A stretch of DNA of 39,578 bases, taken from the sequence record NC_019715.1, one strand, 5' to 3'. The first letter of the stretch is position 1, and every line of letters begins with the position of its first letter. This document shows positions 2,008 to 29,084 of the stretch, piece by piece. This DNA is from Escherichia phage mEp234. The notes beneath the pieces were generated by a model. That model did not search any database and was not told the origin of the DNA. It saw only the letters and a program-made list of their open reading frames with translations. The position numbers and the translations under genes were made by a program.

Positions 2008-3281
2008 TGGAAGAACCTAAATACACGATTGACCTGCGAACCAATAACGGCTGGTGGGCAAGGCTGCAGTCCTGGTTTGTCGGCGGGCGTTTAGTCACCC
2101 CAAATCAGGGCTCACAGACGGGGCCTGTTTCGGCCCACGGACACCTGGGCGATTCATCCATTAACGATGAACGGATACTGCAAATTTCGACTGTGTGGCG
2201 CTGCGTGAGCCTGATTTCAACGCTCACGGCATGCTTACCGCTTGATGTCTTCGAAACAGACCAGAATGACAACCGTAAAAAAGTGGATTTGAGCAATCCA
2301 CTGGCGCGACTGCTGCGCTACTCACCGAATCAGTACATGACCGCCCAAGAATTCAGGGAGGCCATGACGATGCAGCTCTGTTTCTACGGTAACGCATATG
2401 CACTTGTGGACCGCAACAGCGCAGGTGACGTGATCAGCCTTCTCCCGCTTCAGTCTGCCAATATGGATGTGAAGCTCGTCGGAAAAAAAGTGGTTTATCG
2501 CTATCAACGCGACAGCGAATACGCCGACTTTTCGCAGAAAGAGATTTTTCACCTTAAAGGCTTCGGATTCACCGGGCTTGTAGGCCTGTCACCCATTGCT
2601 TTTGCCTGTAAATCGGCAGGTGTGGCAGTTGCGATGGAGGACCAGCAGCGAGATTTCTTTGCCAACGGCGCCAAGTCTCCGCAAATCCTCTCAACTGGCG
2701 AAAAAGTGCTAACTGAACAGCAGCGCTCCCAGGTCGAAGAGAACTTCAAAGAGATCGCCGGCGGCCCGGTAAAAAAACGCCTCTGGATTCTGGAAGCGGG
2801 TTTTTCTACATCGGCAATTGGCGTAACTCCGCAGGATGCCGAAATGATGGCGTCCCGAAAATTTCAGGTAAGTGAACTGGCGCGATTCTTTGGCGTACCG
2901 CCTCACCTTGTCGGCGACGTCGAGAAATCAACGAGCTGGGGATCGGGCATCGAGCAGCAGAATCTCGGCTTCCTGCAGTACACCCTGCAGCCCTATATCT
3001 CCAGGTGGGAAAACAGCATTCAGCGGTGGCTTATTCCTGCTAAGGATGTTGGCCGCATTCATGCTGAGCACAACCTCGACGGCCTGCTGAGGGGCGATTC
3101 GGCATCCCGCGCTGCCTTTATGAAGGCAATGGGAGAGGCAGGGCTACGCACCATCAACGAGATGCGACGAACGGACAACCTCCCGCCATTGCCGGGTGGC
3201 GATGTGGCAATGCGCCAGTCGCAATACGTGCCGATCACCGATTTAGGAACCAACAAAGAGCCCCGTAATAACGGGGCTTAA
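2007..3281 (+). CDS. portal protein (HK97 family)
   Basis: 424 aa from ATG 2007, which overlaps the TerL stop (TGATG); track ORF starts at GTG 2004. Position after TerL. Confidence 0.85.
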   Translation: MEEPKYTIDLRTNNGWWARLQSWFVGGRLVTPNQGSQTGPVSAHGHLGDSSINDERILQISTVWRCVSLISTLTACLPLDVFETDQNDNRKKVDLSNPLARLLRYSPNQYMTAQEFREAMTMQLCFYGNAYALVDRNSAGDVISLLPLQSANMDVKLVGKKVVYRYQRDSEYADFSQKEIFHLKGFGFTGLVGLSPIAFACKSAGVAVAMEDQQRDFFANGAKSPQILSTGEKVLTEQQRSQVEENFKEIAGGPVKKRLWILEAGFSTSAIGVTPQDAEMMASRKFQVSELARFFGVPPHLVGDVEKSTSWGSGIEQQNLGFLQYTLQPYISRWENSIQRWLIPAKDVGRIHAEHNLDGLLRGDSASRAAFMKAMGEAGLRTINEMRRTDNLPPLPGGDVAMRQSQYVPITDLGTNKEPRNNGA

Positions 3282-3286
3282 TTTTT
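3259..3286 (+). terminator. stem-loop plus U-tract at portal 3' end (terminator-like)
   Basis: AGCCCCGT-AATA-ACGGGGCT 8-bp stem overlapping the portal stop, followed by TTTTT then ATGGGGG. Confidence 0.4.
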
Positions 3287-3298
3287 ATGGGGGCCGTA

Positions 3299-3976
3299 AT
3301 GCCTGAAATCGTAAAAACGCTGTCCTTCGACGAGACAGAAATCAAATTCACCGGTGACGGTAAACAGGGGATTTTTGAAGGCTACGCCTCTGTTTTTAAT
3401 AACACCGATTCCGATGGCGACATCATTCTGCCCGGGGCGTTTAAAAACGCGCTGGCGAACCAGACCCGAAAAGTGGCGATGTTTTTTAACCACAGGACGT
3501 GGGAACTGCCGGTTGGCAAATGGGACAGCCTGGCTGAGGACGAAAAAGGCCTGTATGTGCGCGGTCAACTTACCCCAGGACACAGCGGCGCCGCTGACCT
3601 AAAAGCGGCAATGCAGCACGGTACGGTTGAAGGTATGTCGGTTGGCTTTTCCGTTGCGAAAGACGATTACACCATCATTCCAACAGGCCGCATTTTTAAG
3701 AATATCCAGGCTCTGCGCGAAATCAGCGTCTGCACTTTCCCCGCCAACGAACAGGCTGGCATCGCAGCCATGAAAAGTGTCGATGGCATTGAAACGATTC
3801 GTGATGTGGAGAACTGGCTGAGGGATTCAGTCGGCCTCACCAAATCACAGGCAGTTGGGCTAATTGCCCGGTTTAAGTCAGCGATTCGGAGCGAGTCCGA
3901 GGGCGACGGAAACGAAGCACAAATAAACGCTCTGCTTCAGAGCATCAAATCTTTCCCTTCTAACTTAGGTAAATAA
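3299..3976 (+). CDS. prohead maturation protease (HK97 gp4-like)
   Basis: ORF 3287-3976; likely start ATG 3299 (MPEIVKT) 5 nt after a GGGGG run; between portal and capsid gene. Confidence 0.8.
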   Translation: MPEIVKTLSFDETEIKFTGDGKQGIFEGYASVFNNTDSDGDIILPGAFKNALANQTRKVAMFFNHRTWELPVGKWDSLAEDEKGLYVRGQLTPGHSGAADLKAAMQHGTVEGMSVGFSVAKDDYTIIPTGRIFKNIQALREISVCTFPANEQAGIAAMKSVDGIETIRDVENWLRDSVGLTKSQAVGLIARFKSAIRSESEGDGNEAQINALLQSIKSFPSNLGK

Positions 3977-24540: not shown

Positions 24541-25509
24541 TTAGTAGGTTATTTTTGTTGCGAATACTTCGCCTTTTACGATGGCTGTTATGATATTTTT
24601 AGCAACATCTTCTGATGCACCAACCTTGATAAGGTCAGCAAGTATTTTGTTATTTACTTCTTTCCGGTGAGCTTTATCCTTTGCTCTACGCTCTTCTTCG
24701 TCCTTGATTCTTTTTTCTTCTGCTATTCTGGCTTGCTCTTTTGCTTCAGCCTCGCGCCGGATTCGTTCTGCCTCCTCCTGTGCTTTTCGGCGTTCTGCTT
24801 CAATTGCCACCTGCTTTTCTCTTTCAGCTCGTTCTGCTGCCTCTTTTGCTTCGCGCTGTGCTCGTTGCTCGGCTTCAATGCGTTCACGCTCTGCACGTTC
24901 CGCTGCGGCCTTAGCTTCTGCTTCTCGCCTTGCTGCTGCTTCAATTTCGGCTTTTGCCTTTGCTTCGGCTTCAGCTCTGGCTTTCTCTTCAGCTTCTCTT
25001 TTTAAGCGTTCTTCATGCTCTCGCTTTTCCTGCTCCGCTTTGAGTCTTGCCTCTTCTCTTTGGCGGTCAAATTCGCGATCCATCAAAATCGCTATTTCAT
25101 GGTCAGACTCAATTTGCTTTGCGAGAGCTTCAGCTGCTGCCTTAGCTTCTTCTTCGGCTTTAATCCGTGCCTGCTCCTCCTCATAATCAGTAAGAGGCTG
25201 ACGCGCCTTGGCTTTCAGCTCATCAAGTCGATCACGCACTGTCTTGCGGTTGGCATCAATTAGCTTTGGAATTTCCTTCAGTTCAGCAACAAGGTCTTTT
25301 CCAAGACCATCGAGATATGTTTTCGTCTGCGCAACTTTATACGCCAGAGAAGCGATCTCCTTTCTGCCCTTTGCCGTTGTGATATCAGGCACAAAGGACA
25401 TAACTTCACGTTCAACCTTTTGGAGAATTTCTTCAATCTGGTCGGCAGACTGAAATACAGTCATTGCATTTGCTTTTTCAATAACAACTAAATCTGTTAC
25501 TTCACTCAT
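24541..25509 (-). CDS. DUF1351/Gp157-like protein with extended E/A/K/R-rich coiled-coil tract
   Basis: 322 aa from ATG 25507-25509 (strong SD GGAGGATAT); N-terminal ~110 aa globular, then ~180 aa of low-complexity EAKAAAE/RREAEAK repeats; family name is from memory. Confidence 0.5.
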   Translation of the reverse strand: MSEVTDLVVIEKANAMTVFQSADQIEEILQKVEREVMSFVPDITTAKGRKEIASLAYKVAQTKTYLDGLGKDLVAELKEIPKLIDANRKTVRDRLDELKAKARQPLTDYEEEQARIKAEEEAKAAAEALAKQIESDHEIAILMDREFDRQREEARLKAEQEKREHEERLKREAEEKARAEAEAKAKAEIEAAARREAEAKAAAERAERERIEAEQRAQREAKEAAERAEREKQVAIEAERRKAQEEAERIRREAEAKEQARIAEEKRIKDEEERRAKDKAHRKEVNNKILADLIKVGASEDVAKNIITAIVKGEVFATKITY

Positions 25510-25521
25510 ATATCCTCCGTC

Positions 25522-25548
25522 AAAAAAATTGCCCTCACACTGGAGGGC
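25522..25548 (-). terminator. stem-loop plus U-tract immediately upstream of DUF1351-like gene
   Basis: GCCCTC-cagtgt-GAGGGC then TTTTTTT on the minus strand, 13 nt before the SD. Confidence 0.45.
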
Positions 25549-25665
25549 AAAGAAGATTTCCAATAATCAGAACAAGTCGGCTCCTGTTTAGTTACGAGCG
25601 ACATTGCTCCGTGTATTCACTCGTTGGAATGAATACACAGTGCAGTGTTTATTCTGTTATTTATG

Positions 25666-26689: not shown

Positions 26690-26840
26690 ATCTGTATGTT
26701 TTTTATATAGATTTATTTTTTTGCAGGGGTGTGTGGCTTGGGAGGTGATCGAGAGATCTGAATTGCGATGTTTAGTGAGTTGTATCTATTAATTTTCAAA
26801 TAAATACAATTGGTTATGTGTTTTGGGGCGAACGTGAGGC

Positions 26841-26867
26841 AAAGAAAACCCGGCGCGGTGGCCGGGT
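26841..26867 (-). terminator. Rho-independent terminator ending the cI-side accessory operon
   Basis: ACCCGGC-caccgc-GCCGGGT then TTTTCTTT on the minus strand, 7 nt after the stop of the 141-aa gene. Confidence 0.6.
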
Positions 26868-26873
26868 TGGAGA

Positions 26874-27299
26874 TTATTTTCTAGATGATGTTGGGGACCA
26901 AGGTAACGTTATAGTATCTAACACTGTGTTTTTGAACATATTTTCAAAAACTGTTTTTGTACATACATATACATAATTTTCAAAAAACCAAGCATTTTCA
27001 TTATAAAAATCCTCAGTTACTTCTTCATCGAGGTCACACTCAAATGTTAGTGTCAAGGTAGCCTCTGCCTTGAACAATACATCCTCACCATCATCAAAAT
27101 CTTTTTTATCGCGAGGGAAACCAGTTATCGATGGCTTAACTTCAATAAAGAGCCAATTTCCATCTTCATCTTTTTGAGGAACAACGTGATGCTCAGAAAA
27201 TTTTAAGCTATATTTTCCGCCTTCAGAATTATCACTGTCGTCGATAAAAAGGGAAGAACCCTCGAGATCAAATCCCTTAAAGCGAATTTTATCAAGCAT
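26874..27299 (-). CDS. acidic protein of unknown function, translationally coupled to hicB
   Basis: 141 aa from ATG 27297-27299, overlapping the hicB stop (TGATG); AT-rich coding sequence; no recognisable motif; the track ORF extends to an upstream TTG. Confidence 0.5.
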   Translation of the reverse strand: MLDKIRFKGFDLEGSSLFIDDSDNSEGGKYSLKFSEHHVVPQKDEDGNWLFIEVKPSITGFPRDKKDFDDGEDVLFKAEATLTLTFECDLDEEVTEDFYNENAWFFENYVYVCTKTVFENMFKNTVLDTITLPWSPTSSRK

Positions 27300-27772
27300 C
27301 AATGTGGCACTCCGTTGTCTACTGAAACTTCCCAATAGGTCTCTTCTGTACGTCTACGGGATGAGAAGAAAGTAACTTCTCTAACATCCCTCGGTTTTTC
27401 AAAGTGGTAGTGAACCTCTTTTTTCCCATTAACTGACTCACTGACAGCCTGTTTTACATAATCGTTTAAAGTCATATTCTTAGCTTTAGCAGCTAAATAT
27501 GCTTTTTTATGCAGGGATTCACCTATCCGGATGTTAAACGAACCACTCATTGTCTTATCTGGAGATTTTCCTATCTCTTCACAAGTGGAGAGGTAATCGT
27601 CCACGGCCTCCTCAAAGGCTGCACGGAGTTCTGCAACCGTTGCACCCTCATAAGTGACGAGATCATTTATACATTCGAGTTTTCCATGCATCACCCCATC
27701 TTCAAATGAAATGCTGGAGCTACCATAGTAACCTTTGTATTTCATCAAGTTATTCATGATCATCAATCTCAT
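27299..27772 (-). CDS. hicB: HicB-family antitoxin with C-terminal extension
   Basis: N-terminal MKYKGYYGS...DLVTYEGATVAEL...VDDYL (HicB fold), RHH-like IRIGESLHKKAYLAAKAKNMTLNDYV, then ~45 extra residues; four in-frame ATGs between 27745 and 27772. Confidence 0.7.
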   Translation of the reverse strand: MRLMIMNNLMKYKGYYGSSSISFEDGVMHGKLECINDLVTYEGATVAELRAAFEEAVDDYLSTCEEIGKSPDKTMSGSFNIRIGESLHKKAYLAAKAKNMTLNDYVKQAVSESVNGKKEVHYHFEKPRDVREVTFFSSRRRTEETYWEVSVDNGVPH

Positions 27773-28004
27773 CTAACAGCTGTTTAACTTCTTCCAAGAC
27801 GTACCTTTTGAGGGTGTTTTCAGGATGAGGCTCATGAAAAATGACCAATCTATCAACACGTTGGTTGTAAAATTTACGGCCAGAACCTCGTTTAGCATTC
27901 AAAAGCTTGAAGCCATACTGGTTCATGAGAGTAACGAACTCATCCCAAGTAAAATTTTTGGGTAAGCCGTCTAACTTTGACTTTAGCTTTTCCTTTCTTC
28001 CCAC
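27750..28004 (-). CDS. hicA: HicA/YcfA-family toxin-like protein
   Basis: 84 aa (GTG start); ...FKLLNAKRGSGRKFYNQRVDRLVIFHEPHPENTLKRYVLEEVKQL matches the HicA fold pattern as recalled; directly upstream of hicB. Confidence 0.65.
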   Translation of the reverse strand: MGRKEKLKSKLDGLPKNFTWDEFVTLMNQYGFKLLNAKRGSGRKFYNQRVDRLVIFHEPHPENTLKRYVLEEVKQLLDEIDDHE

Positions 28005-28164
28005 GAAGGATACATCCTCTGTTAAAGGTAGTGCAACTGAAATCTAGTTGCAAGCTATGCTATCTATAGACAAAATGTTTCATTGTTATATCAGAAGATA
28101 CCCGATCTGTTTCACCTTCAACTACTATAATTTGTTATAAGCTATCAACCGGTGGAACTGCGAA

Positions 28165-28263
28165 TTAGCCGCTGGGTGTTGCGTATCCATCGATGATAAA
28201 CCATGCCATAAACCCCATAGCTACGATGAACACCAAGATCGGAAACACTATACCAATTCTCAT
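28165..28263 (-). CDS. 32-aa hydrophobic peptide ORF (candidate small membrane protein)
   Basis: MRIGIVFPILVFIVAMGFMAWFIIDGYATPSG, ATG 28261-28263 with GGGAT upstream; lies in the 363-bp AT-rich spacer between cI and hicA; translated by hand. Confidence 0.3.
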   Translation of the reverse strand: MRIGIVFPILVFIVAMGFMAWFIIDGYATPSG

Positions 28264-28367
28264 GATTTTATCCCTGTCTACCCATGCTTCCTGGGCACCA
28301 GCGGCTCGTTACTCGGCATCACCCTTAATCCGCCGCCCCATGTGTTTGTTGTGATCCGTTGCTGGCC

Positions 28368-29084
<717 letters not shown>

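What the first reader, a model, noticed from the sequence alone, without database searches (positions are those of the whole stretch)
26874..27299. Unknown 141-aa acidic protein translationally coupled to hicB
ATG 27297-27299 shares a base with the hicB stop codon (TGATG), so it is probably co-translated with the antitoxin. The protein is rich in D/E/F with no motif I can place, and is the last gene before the operon terminator. Third genes attached to TA pairs are often the effector or sensor of a defence system.
Basis: inference. Interest (0 to 1): 0.6.

Follow-up and report, generated by a model that had tools for sequence, protein, structure and literature searches.

The report
SecB-like chaperone of prophage HicAB
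The "unknown acidic protein" after hicB is most likely a SecB-fold chaperone that stabilises the HicB antitoxin, making a three-part toxin-antitoxin-chaperone module where phage lambda carries rexAB; this kind of system is known, though this chaperone family cannot be recognised from sequence.

Summary
ORF 26874-27299 (-) is a real 141-aa acidic protein (pI 4.4). Its ATG shares one base with the hicB stop (TGATG), and an intrinsic terminator follows it. The window is lambdoid phage mEp234/HK106. Here hicA-hicB-orf141 occupies the cI-to-PL slot where lambda has rexAB.

In every locus examined, family members sit directly after hicA-hicB. The gene occurs only where HicB has a roughly 45-aa C-terminal tail: 10 of 28 long-tailed versus 0 of 53 short-tailed HicB loci. 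That tail is predicted disordered and carries conserved HxH, aromatic and Trp motifs, like a chaperone-addiction (ChAD) element.

Best reading: a HicA-HicB-HicC toxin-antitoxin-chaperone system, probably a prophage defence module. A 2025 GenBank record already labels the gene "HicC chaperone", but I found no paper. It is a new member of a known kind, of modest interest.

The parts
26874..27299 (-). hicC: 141-aa acidic protein with a SecB-like fold, the putative TAC chaperone (the finding)
27299..27757 (-). hicB: antitoxin of 152 aa counted from the ATG that overlaps the hicA stop. Alternative starts are 27772 (157 aa) and 27745 (148 aa, the GenBank choice).
   Evidence: Pfam HicB, E 1.5e-18. 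Homologues are called at 152 aa with an 8-nt overlap on hicA. The AF2 model shows an N-terminal domain at 1-62 and a ribbon-helix-helix at 72-110.
27302..27427 (-). HicB C-terminal tail (residues 111-152), the putative chaperone-addiction (ChAD) element
   Evidence: No secondary structure is predicted, and pLDDT is below 50 from residue 125. Conserved motifs are KE-x-H-x-H, a mid-tail aromatic, a Trp and a terminal His. Tails of 31-61 aa co-occur with a third gene; tails of 0-16 aa never have HicC.
27750..28004 (-). hicA: toxin of 84 aa with a GTG start
   Evidence: Pfam HicA_toxin, E 1.2e-7. PHROG 8887 'toxin', E 2.7e-34. Invariant GS and PHP motifs.
28032..28052 (.). Inverted repeat TGCAACT-N7-AGTTGCA, a putative HicB operator. 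It overlaps a weak putative promoter (TTGCAA-17 nt-TACCTT) about 28 nt upstream of the hicA start.
   Evidence: Found. Both arms are invariant in 6 loci whose surrounding upstream DNA is otherwise barely alignable. The promoter and operator roles are inference.
26847..26868 (-). Intrinsic terminator ending the unit (lambda t_imm-like position)
   Evidence: 8-bp stem with 6 GC pairs followed by a T-run. The region matches DNA just downstream of lambda rexB at 94% identity.

Best explanation
orf141 (HicC) is a SecB-fold holdase chaperone dedicated to the HicB antitoxin. Together hicA-hicB-hicC form a tripartite toxin-antitoxin-chaperone (TAC) module.

**Proposed mechanism (inferred unless marked otherwise).**
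1. The three cistrons are translated as a coupled unit. Transcripts come from read-through from cI (PRM), as for lambda rexAB, and/or from a HicB-autoregulated promoter at the conserved operator.
2. HicC binds the disordered, aromatic-containing C-terminal tail of HicB (residues about 111-152). By analogy with SecB it probably acts as a tetramer. Binding protects HicB from aggregation and proteolysis, so HicB can neutralise the HicA RNase.
3. If HicC is titrated away, HicB is lost and HicA is freed. In other TACs the competitor is an invading phage's structural protein. Free HicA would arrest translation and abort the infection.
4. The module's place in the lysogen-expressed immunity region, in the rexAB slot, fits a role in excluding other phages.

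**Shown here:** the fold, the strict synteny, the co-occurrence of tail and third gene, the predicted disorder of the tail, and the coupled gene arrangement.

**Inferred by analogy:** binding itself, the oligomeric state, protease sensitivity, the trigger and the defence phenotype.
For: **Fold.**
- AF2 model: pLDDT 79, pTM 0.73.
- Foldseek against PDB: hits 1-18 are all SecB or SecB-TA chains. The best is 5mtw, Rv1957 in complex with the ChAD peptide.
- BFVD: two of the four best hits are phage proteins named 'SecB' and the other two are uncharacterised.
- pI is 4.36, against 4.26 for E. coli SecB.
- A family-wide conserved L-P motif follows the long helix (P133 is invariant in 53 sequences). 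It sits in the same relative position as the L154-P155-P156-L157 segment of Rv1957 that contacts ChAD Y114 (PMC6377645). The positional match was judged by eye.

**Synteny.** Every family member examined, down to about 20% identity, lies directly after HicA_toxin plus a 152-161-aa HicB.

**Tail dependence.** Among 80 genome loci with HicB relatives, HicC is directly downstream in 10 of 28 with a 31-61-aa tail. It is downstream in 0 of 53 with a 0-16-aa tail (Fisher p = 7e-6). A 132-aa HicB sits in a plain two-gene hicAB.

**Tail properties.** It is predicted disordered, and it is variable apart from HxH, aromatic and Trp motifs. ChAD elements are described the same way: disordered, variable, and recognised through aromatic residues (PMC5105189; bioRxiv 10.1101/2024.02.24.581848).

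**Precedent.**
- HicAB-type TACs exist and function, for example Methylomonas Mmet-TAC.
- Prophage-encoded TACs defend against phages.
- GenBank PV340539.1 annotates this exact gene 'HicC chaperone'.
Against: - No sequence-level link to SecB was found. Pfam SecB hits 0 of 53 family members. Family profiles find no significant PDB match, and never SecB. hhalign against an 11-sequence SecB profile gives 2.7% probability.
- Homology therefore rests on one predicted structure built from a 10-sequence alignment. Two of the five AF2 models were poor (pLDDT 45-60).
- No interaction between HicC and the HicB tail was computed or measured.
- 18 of the 28 long-tailed HicB loci lack HicC, and several of those carry other downstream genes (PIN, DUF6941, unknown ORFs). 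A long tail alone is therefore not diagnostic.
- PADLOC has no model that hits any of the three proteins.
- No defence phenotype is on record in the papers I could search.
Confidence: 0.78

Rival explanations
1. HicC has a SecB-like fold but is not a HicB chaperone. It would be an independent moron, co-transcribed with hicAB and riding on the operon. Possible roles include an exclusion or anti-defence protein, or a holdase for some phage or host client.
For: The SecB-like fold also occurs in proteins of unknown function that have no TA link (2o2a and 2hng). No binding to HicB was tested. Morons often accumulate in the cI-PL slot.
Against: Linkage to hicAB is strict across about 20-100% identity and across many different prophage and non-prophage backgrounds. 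The gene occurs only with long-tailed HicB. The stop/start overlap with hicB is conserved.
Confidence: 0.1
2. HicC acts directly on the toxin, either as a second antitoxin or as a modulator or adaptor of HicA, rather than through the antitoxin tail.
For: Tripartite TA systems with other logics exist (for example HipBST, listed). HicC is strongly acidic and HicA is basic (pI 8.9).
Against: The closest structural relative is a chaperone crystallised with an antitoxin peptide. The correlation is with the HicB tail, not with any HicA feature. HicB keeps complete N-terminal and RHH domains, which are enough for neutralisation in two-gene systems.
Confidence: 0.07
3. HicC is a general SecB-type export chaperone supplied by the phage to help protein secretion.
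For: It has the same fold and acidity as SecB. Some TAC chaperones can partly replace SecB (PMC6377645).
Against: There is no detectable sequence similarity to canonical SecB. The E. coli host already has secB. The gene is never seen away from hicAB.
Confidence: 0.03
4. The ORF is not expressed or not functional: a chance ORF or a decaying remnant.
For: None found, apart from the absence of any protein-level data.
Against: dN/dS is 0.09. The family has about 50 representative clusters. The start is conserved and so is the coupling. The fold is predicted with confidence.
Confidence: 0.01

Closest known systems
M. tuberculosis TAC: HigB1-HigA1-SecB^TA (Rv1955-Rv1957; PDB 5MTW)
   Different: The toxin-antitoxin family differs (HigBA versus HicAB). 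Sequence identity is only 12-14%. Rv1957 is a recognised SecB homologue, whereas HicC matches no SecB profile. The Mtb system is chromosomal, while this one sits in a prophage immunity region.
HicAB-type TAC of Methylomonas methanica MC09 (Mmet-TAC, Metme_2813/2812 plus SecB^TA; Bordes et al. 2016, PMC5105189)
   Same: Same toxin and antitoxin families, same gene order, and a HicB ChAD of about 40 aa (residues 119-159 there, about 111-152 here).
   Different: That chaperone was identified as a SecB homologue. Context also differs: a bacterial chromosome there, a lambdoid prophage here.
Prophage-encoded antiphage TACs of E. coli: HigBAC (NT1F31), CmdTAC, MqsRAC (Mets et al. 2024 bioRxiv 10.1101/2024.02.24.581848; Vassallo et al. 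2022, PMC9519451; Vassallo et al. 2024, PMC11618068)
   Same: All are carried in variable regions of temperate phages. All have a SecB-like 'C' component, which is the source of the HigC, CmdC and HicC naming. The proposed logic is also shared: the chaperone holds the antitoxin tail and is diverted by a phage structural protein.
   Different: The toxins differ (a HigB RNase and the CmdT ADP-ribosyltransferase, versus HicA here). Triggers and defence phenotypes are demonstrated for those systems and are unknown for this one.
Lambda rexA-rexB exclusion system
   Same: Identical genomic slot, between cI and the terminator upstream of PL, and therefore probably the same lysogen-specific expression. 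The presumed role is also the same: excluding other phages by an abortive mechanism.
   Different: The proteins and mechanism are unrelated. Rex is generally described as a membrane-depolarising system (my own knowledge, not checked here), whereas this is an RNase toxin with an antitoxin and a chaperone.

Membership tests
SecB-like fold (structural superfamily) | An antiparallel beta-sheet followed by a long alpha-helix and an extended C-terminal segment. Solved SecB or SecB-TA structures should be the top structural neighbours. | tested here: met
SecB sequence family (Pfam SecB; canonical protein-export chaperone) | A significant match to the SecB profile | tested here: not met
   No Pfam hit for the window protein at E <= 1. 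No SecB hit for any of 53 family members. Neither family profile finds SecB among PDB sequences. hhalign of the family against an 11-sequence SecB profile gives probability 2.7%.
SecB sequence family (Pfam SecB; canonical protein-export chaperone) | Homotetramer (a dimer of dimers) that binds the SecA C-terminus | not testable with these tools
   Only monomer prediction was available.
Toxin-antitoxin-chaperone (TAC) system | A three-gene operon made of a type II toxin, an antitoxin and a SecB-like chaperone | tested here: met
   hicA (27750-28004), hicB (27299-27757) and hicC (26874-27299) are on one strand with overlapping stops and starts, and a terminator follows hicC. The same order holds in all related loci.
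Toxin-antitoxin-chaperone (TAC) system | The antitoxin carries a C-terminal extension (ChAD) that two-gene homologues lack. The extension is disordered and variable. | tested here: met
   Tail length is bimodal. HicC occurs only with 43-61-aa tails, in 10 of 28 long-tailed loci against 0 of 53 short-tailed ones (p = 7e-6). The tail is predicted disordered. It is variable except for short HxH, aromatic and Trp motifs.
Toxin-antitoxin-chaperone (TAC) system | The chaperone binds the ChAD and is required for the antitoxin to be stable and to neutralise the toxin (chaperone addiction) | not testable with these tools
   This needs co-expression and toxicity assays or binding assays.
HicAB type II TA | A HicA_toxin domain protein next to a HicB antitoxin with a DNA-binding domain | tested here: met
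   Pfam HicA_toxin E 1.2e-7 and HicB E 1.5e-18. The AF2 model of HicB shows the N-terminal domain and the RHH.
Antiphage defence system (PADLOC catalogue) | A match to a catalogued defence-system protein model | tested here: not met
   No PADLOC v2.0.0 model hits any of the three proteins at E <= 1. The catalogue dates from 2023.

The most novel reading that the evidence does not exclude
HicC may represent a SecB-fold chaperone lineage that has diverged beyond sequence recognition and is specialised for HicAB. It would then be the phage-sensing component of a prophage-encoded abortive-infection module that functionally replaces Rex in lambdoid phages. An incoming phage's structural protein would displace the HicB tail from HicC and unleash HicA. 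If so, TAC systems are under-counted by surveys that rely on SecB profiles. Other unplaced third genes after long-tailed HicB (L035, L069, L041, and the DUF6941 protein in L042) could be further cryptic chaperones.
Probability: 0.4. Interest if true: 0.55.

Novelty: new member of a known kind. Interest (0 to 1): 0.36.

Why it matters
- **Annotation.** It turns a "hypothetical protein" into a testable component. RefSeq labels the gene hypothetical in all six complete E. coli genomes that carry this allele, and homologues in Citrobacter, Klebsiella and Pantoea carry the same label.
- **Rex replacement.** In mEp234/HK106-like lambdoid phages the Rex exclusion slot holds a toxin-antitoxin-chaperone module.
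- **Survey bias.** TAC chaperones can be invisible to sequence profiles, so TAC surveys seeded on SecB homology probably miss whole families.
- **Experimental access.** mEp234 and HK106 are laboratory phages of E. coli K-12. The predictions (chaperone addiction through the HicB tail, exclusion of superinfecting phages, identity of the trigger) are easy to test genetically.

Tried and rejected
**Sequence-based assignment of orf141 gave no function.**
- Pfam and NCBIfam gave nothing, and PADLOC gave nothing.
- PHROGs gave only phrog_19522, 'unknown function'.
- PDB sequence profiles from 10 and 53 sequences gave only insignificant, unrelated hits (E 0.27 and 0.58) and then nothing.
- hhalign against E. 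coli SecB alone gave 0.2% probability, and against an 11-sequence SecB profile 2.7%.

**Literature.** Searches for HicC, mEp234, mEp506, the PV34053x accessions, HicBAC/HicABC and HK106 found no description of this system. The mEp234 and HK106 papers I opened do not mention it. Gerdes' HicA-context survey does not mention chaperones.

**Co-folding.** I tried to co-fold HicC with the HicB tail as a linker chimera with a paired alignment.

**Fold library.** The afdb50 fold library was unavailable.

**Uninformative short HicB cases.**
- The 114-aa HicB at 96% identity (P0082) might have been a natural tail deletion, but it lies at a contig end.
- The 119-aa P0138 is also near a contig end.

**Other third genes.** The unknown third genes after long-tailed HicB in Firmicutes (L035, L069) show no significant hhalign match to the HicC family.

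**Promoter scan.** The consensus scan found no strong sigma-70 site upstream of hicA on the minus strand. The promoter I propose at the operator is below that scan's threshold and is inference.

Full report
**1. What is at the coordinates**

The window is a lambdoid phage. Bases 26800-28300 are 100% identical to Enterobacteria phage mEp234 and Escherichia phage HK106.

On the minus strand the order is:
- cI repressor (28368-29081)
- a 32-aa ORF (28165-28263)
- hicA (27750-28004; Pfam HicA_toxin, E 1.2e-7)
- hicB (27299-27757 or 27772; Pfam HicB, E 1.5e-18)
- the 141-aa ORF (26874-27299)
- an intrinsic terminator (26868-26847)
- PL/OL, then N

This is the slot that rexA-rexB occupy in lambda. 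The 69 bp after the ORF match the DNA just downstream of lambda rexB.

The hicB stop TGA (27301-27299) and the ATG (27299-27297) share one base. The protein is acidic (30 D+E, pI 4.36). It is also the last cistron before the terminator.

**2. It is a real, conserved gene**

- Ten homologues of 57-85% identity come from Citrobacter, Klebsiella, Pantoea and metagenomes. They share 53 invariant positions and the same M-L-(D/E)-K-I start.
- dN/dS against a 72%-identical copy is 0.09, with synonymous sites near saturation.
- An exhaustive profile search of 1.8 billion representative proteins finds about 50 further clusters of 130-155 aa.
- RefSeq calls the gene 'hypothetical protein' in the six complete E. 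coli genomes (of 5,426) that carry this allele.

**3. What it is**

Sequence methods say nothing:
- Pfam, NCBIfam and PADLOC gave no hit.
- PHROGs gave only an 'unknown function' family.
- PDB sequence searches with family profiles returned only insignificant, unrelated hits.

The AlphaFold2 model from the 10-sequence alignment has pLDDT 79 and pTM 0.73. It shows a beta-sheet followed by a long helix and an extended C-terminal segment.

Three fold searches agree:
- **Foldseek against the PDB.** It returns only SecB-type chaperones at the top. The first is 5MTW, the M. tuberculosis TAC chaperone Rv1957 bound to the ChAD peptide of its antitoxin (E 2.4e-5, TM 0.67-0.74). E. coli and H. influenzae SecB follow.
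- **BFVD viral library.** Two of the four best hits are phage proteins named SecB; the other two are uncharacterised.

The pI matches that of E. coli SecB (4.26). The only invariant residues across 53 family members are G28 and P133. P133 lies in an L-P motif after the long helix. By eye, this is the same relative position as the L154-P-P-L157 segment of Rv1957 that contacts the ChAD tyrosine (PMC6377645).

Profile-profile comparison with an 11-sequence canonical SecB profile is not significant (2.7%). I built that profile from plasmid-borne and chromosome-borne secB genes. I therefore claim the SecB-like fold, not membership of the SecB sequence family.

**4. Context test**

Every family member whose locus I could read sits immediately after a HicA_toxin gene and a 152-161-aa HicB. 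This holds down to about 20% identity and profile E about 1e-4.

The backgrounds vary:
- lambdoid prophages with at least five different repressor types, always between the repressor and N
- a Marinomonas chromosome
- short metagenomic contigs

The very common Enterobacter HicB (P0122, listed in more than 1,000 index blocks) is followed by a 141-aa ORF that is 26% identical to the window protein (E 9e-23).

I then took 80 genome loci encoding HicB relatives. For each I measured how far HicB extends beyond its ribbon-helix-helix core.
- The distribution is bimodal: 0-16 aa (53 cases) or 31-61 aa (28 cases).
- A HicC-family ORF lies directly downstream in 10 of the 28 long-tailed cases and in none of the 53 short-tailed ones (Fisher p = 7e-6).
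- Several long-tailed loci without HicC carry other adjacent downstream genes: a PIN domain protein in Latescibacterota, DUF6941, or unknown ORFs. Others have no comparable downstream ORF. A long tail alone is therefore not diagnostic.
- A 132-aa HicB at 58% identity belongs to a plain two-gene hicAB.

**5. The HicB tail**

In the AF2 model of HicB (37-sequence alignment) the N-terminal domain (1-62) and the RHH (72-110) are confident. Residues 111-152 have no secondary structure, and pLDDT falls below 50 from residue 125.

Across homologues the tail is variable in sequence and length. It keeps four short features: a K-E-x-H-x-H motif, an aromatic residue about 12 positions later, a Trp near the end, and a terminal His.

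This matches how chaperone-addiction (ChAD) elements are described. They are C-terminal, disordered and poorly conserved. The chaperone recognises them through a few aromatic residues (PMC5105189; PMC6377645; bioRxiv 10.1101/2024.02.24.581848).

**6. Expression signals**

- hicA/hicB overlap by 8 nt and hicB/hicC by 1 nt.
- The hicB/hicC junction is T(G/A)ATG in 8 of 16 loci, and 12 of 16 overlap. This supports translational coupling.
- An inverted repeat TGCAACT-N7-AGTTGCA (28032-28052) lies 28 nt upstream of the hicA start. Both arms are invariant in six loci whose neighbouring DNA barely aligns.
- It is the obvious candidate for the HicB (RHH) operator. It overlaps a weak candidate promoter, TTGCAA-17 nt-TACCTT. 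Both roles are inference.
- No convincing terminator separates cI from hicA. Read-through from PRM, as for rexAB, is therefore also likely (inference).

**7. Mechanism proposed**

The locus is a HicA-HicB-HicC toxin-antitoxin-chaperone system. HicC holds the HicB tail, which keeps HicB soluble and protected so that it neutralises the HicA RNase. Loss or diversion of HicC would free HicA.

In E. coli HigBAC the chaperone HigC is diverted by lambda's major tail protein gpV. That protein mimics the aromatic pattern of the ChAD, so the chaperone acts as the phage sensor.

The lysogen-expressed rexAB position argues for an equivalent exclusion role here. However, the trigger, the phenotype and even the HicC-HicB contact are untested.

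Confidence:
- about 0.78 that HicC is the dedicated chaperone of a TAC
- about 0.4-0.5 that the module is an antiphage system with HicC as its sensor

**8. Relation to what is known**

- TACs built on HicAB are known and have been shown to work (Methylomonas Mmet-TAC).
- Prophage-borne TACs that defend against phages are known.
- A 2025 GenBank record of mEp234 (PV340539.1) and one of mEp506 already label this gene 'HicC chaperone'. Someone has therefore made the same call.
- I found no paper describing it.

The added value here is the evidence itself, plus two points. The chaperone family is undetectable by SecB sequence profiles. It is also tightly tied to long-tailed HicB.

Verdict: a new member of a known kind. 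It is of moderate interest as a tractable system in a K-12 laboratory phage, and as a warning that surveys seeded on SecB homology under-count TACs.

Noticed in passing
window 28165-28263 (-): A 32-aa hydrophobic ORF (MRIGIVFPILVFIVAMGFMAWFIIDGYATPSG) lies between cI and hicA. A clear homologue sits in the same position in a Pantoea prophage (L002 3022-3120, MKIGYLFPVAIIIAGVMLLIWFIASGAYAPGG). That copy carries a precomputed Pfam YoaK (PF28021) hit. The window copy gave no Pfam hit at E <= 1. It may be a small membrane protein expressed in the lysogen.
   Followed up: partly
window 27750-28004 (-); alignment A5: In this HicA clade the residues after the conserved Gly-Ser are G-R or R-R in 7 of 8 sequences; only one has GSH. 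From memory, canonical HicA toxins have their catalytic His at that position. The invariant His here lies in a P-H-P motif (H60). The catalytic arrangement of this clade may differ. No solved HicA structure matched by sequence.
   Followed up: partly
L039, L045, L051, L052, L061, L076, L089 (Latescibacterota), about 2987-3409: HicB relatives with a roughly 51-aa tail are followed, 3-6 nt later, by a PIN-domain (VapC-like) protein instead of HicC (Pfam PIN, E 5.5e-11 for L039). This could be a HicB-fused antitoxin serving a second toxin, or a different three-gene arrangement.
   Followed up: partly
L042 2983-3408; L041 3008-3451; L035 2964-3341; L069 2114-2563: Other long-tailed HicBs are followed by overlapping or adjacent 125-149-aa ORFs. 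One is DUF6941 (L042, E 3.3e-6). The others have no family and no hhalign match to HicC. They may be further cryptic third components.
   Followed up: partly
L004 4481-4690, L007 2390-2599, L002 4515-4721, L013 3452-3622 (opposite strand): In related prophages a 56-69-aa gene on the opposite strand lies between hicC and N (DUF2767 in L007). The window has no counterpart. It goes straight from the terminator to PL.
   Followed up: no
window 24541-25563 (-): A 340-aa ORF has a long, highly charged E/A/K/R-rich repeat region (AEAEAKAKAEIEAAARREAEAKAAAERAERE...). GenBank annotates it as 'TolA' for mEp234. It lies in the PL operon downstream of N.
   Followed up: no
proteins P0023 (3615 aa), P0047, P0051, P0061, P0071: Very large proteins match short parts of the HicC profile repeatedly; for example, P0023 has 11 stretches, the best matching profile positions 2-37. 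This is probably a repeat or beta-strand motif resemblance rather than homology.
   Followed up: no
L015 3001-3345 (Enterobacter kobei): A 114-aa HicB, 96% identical to the window's but lacking the tail, lies 56 nt from a contig end. It cannot be decided whether this is a natural ChAD and hicC loss or an assembly artefact.
   Followed up: partly
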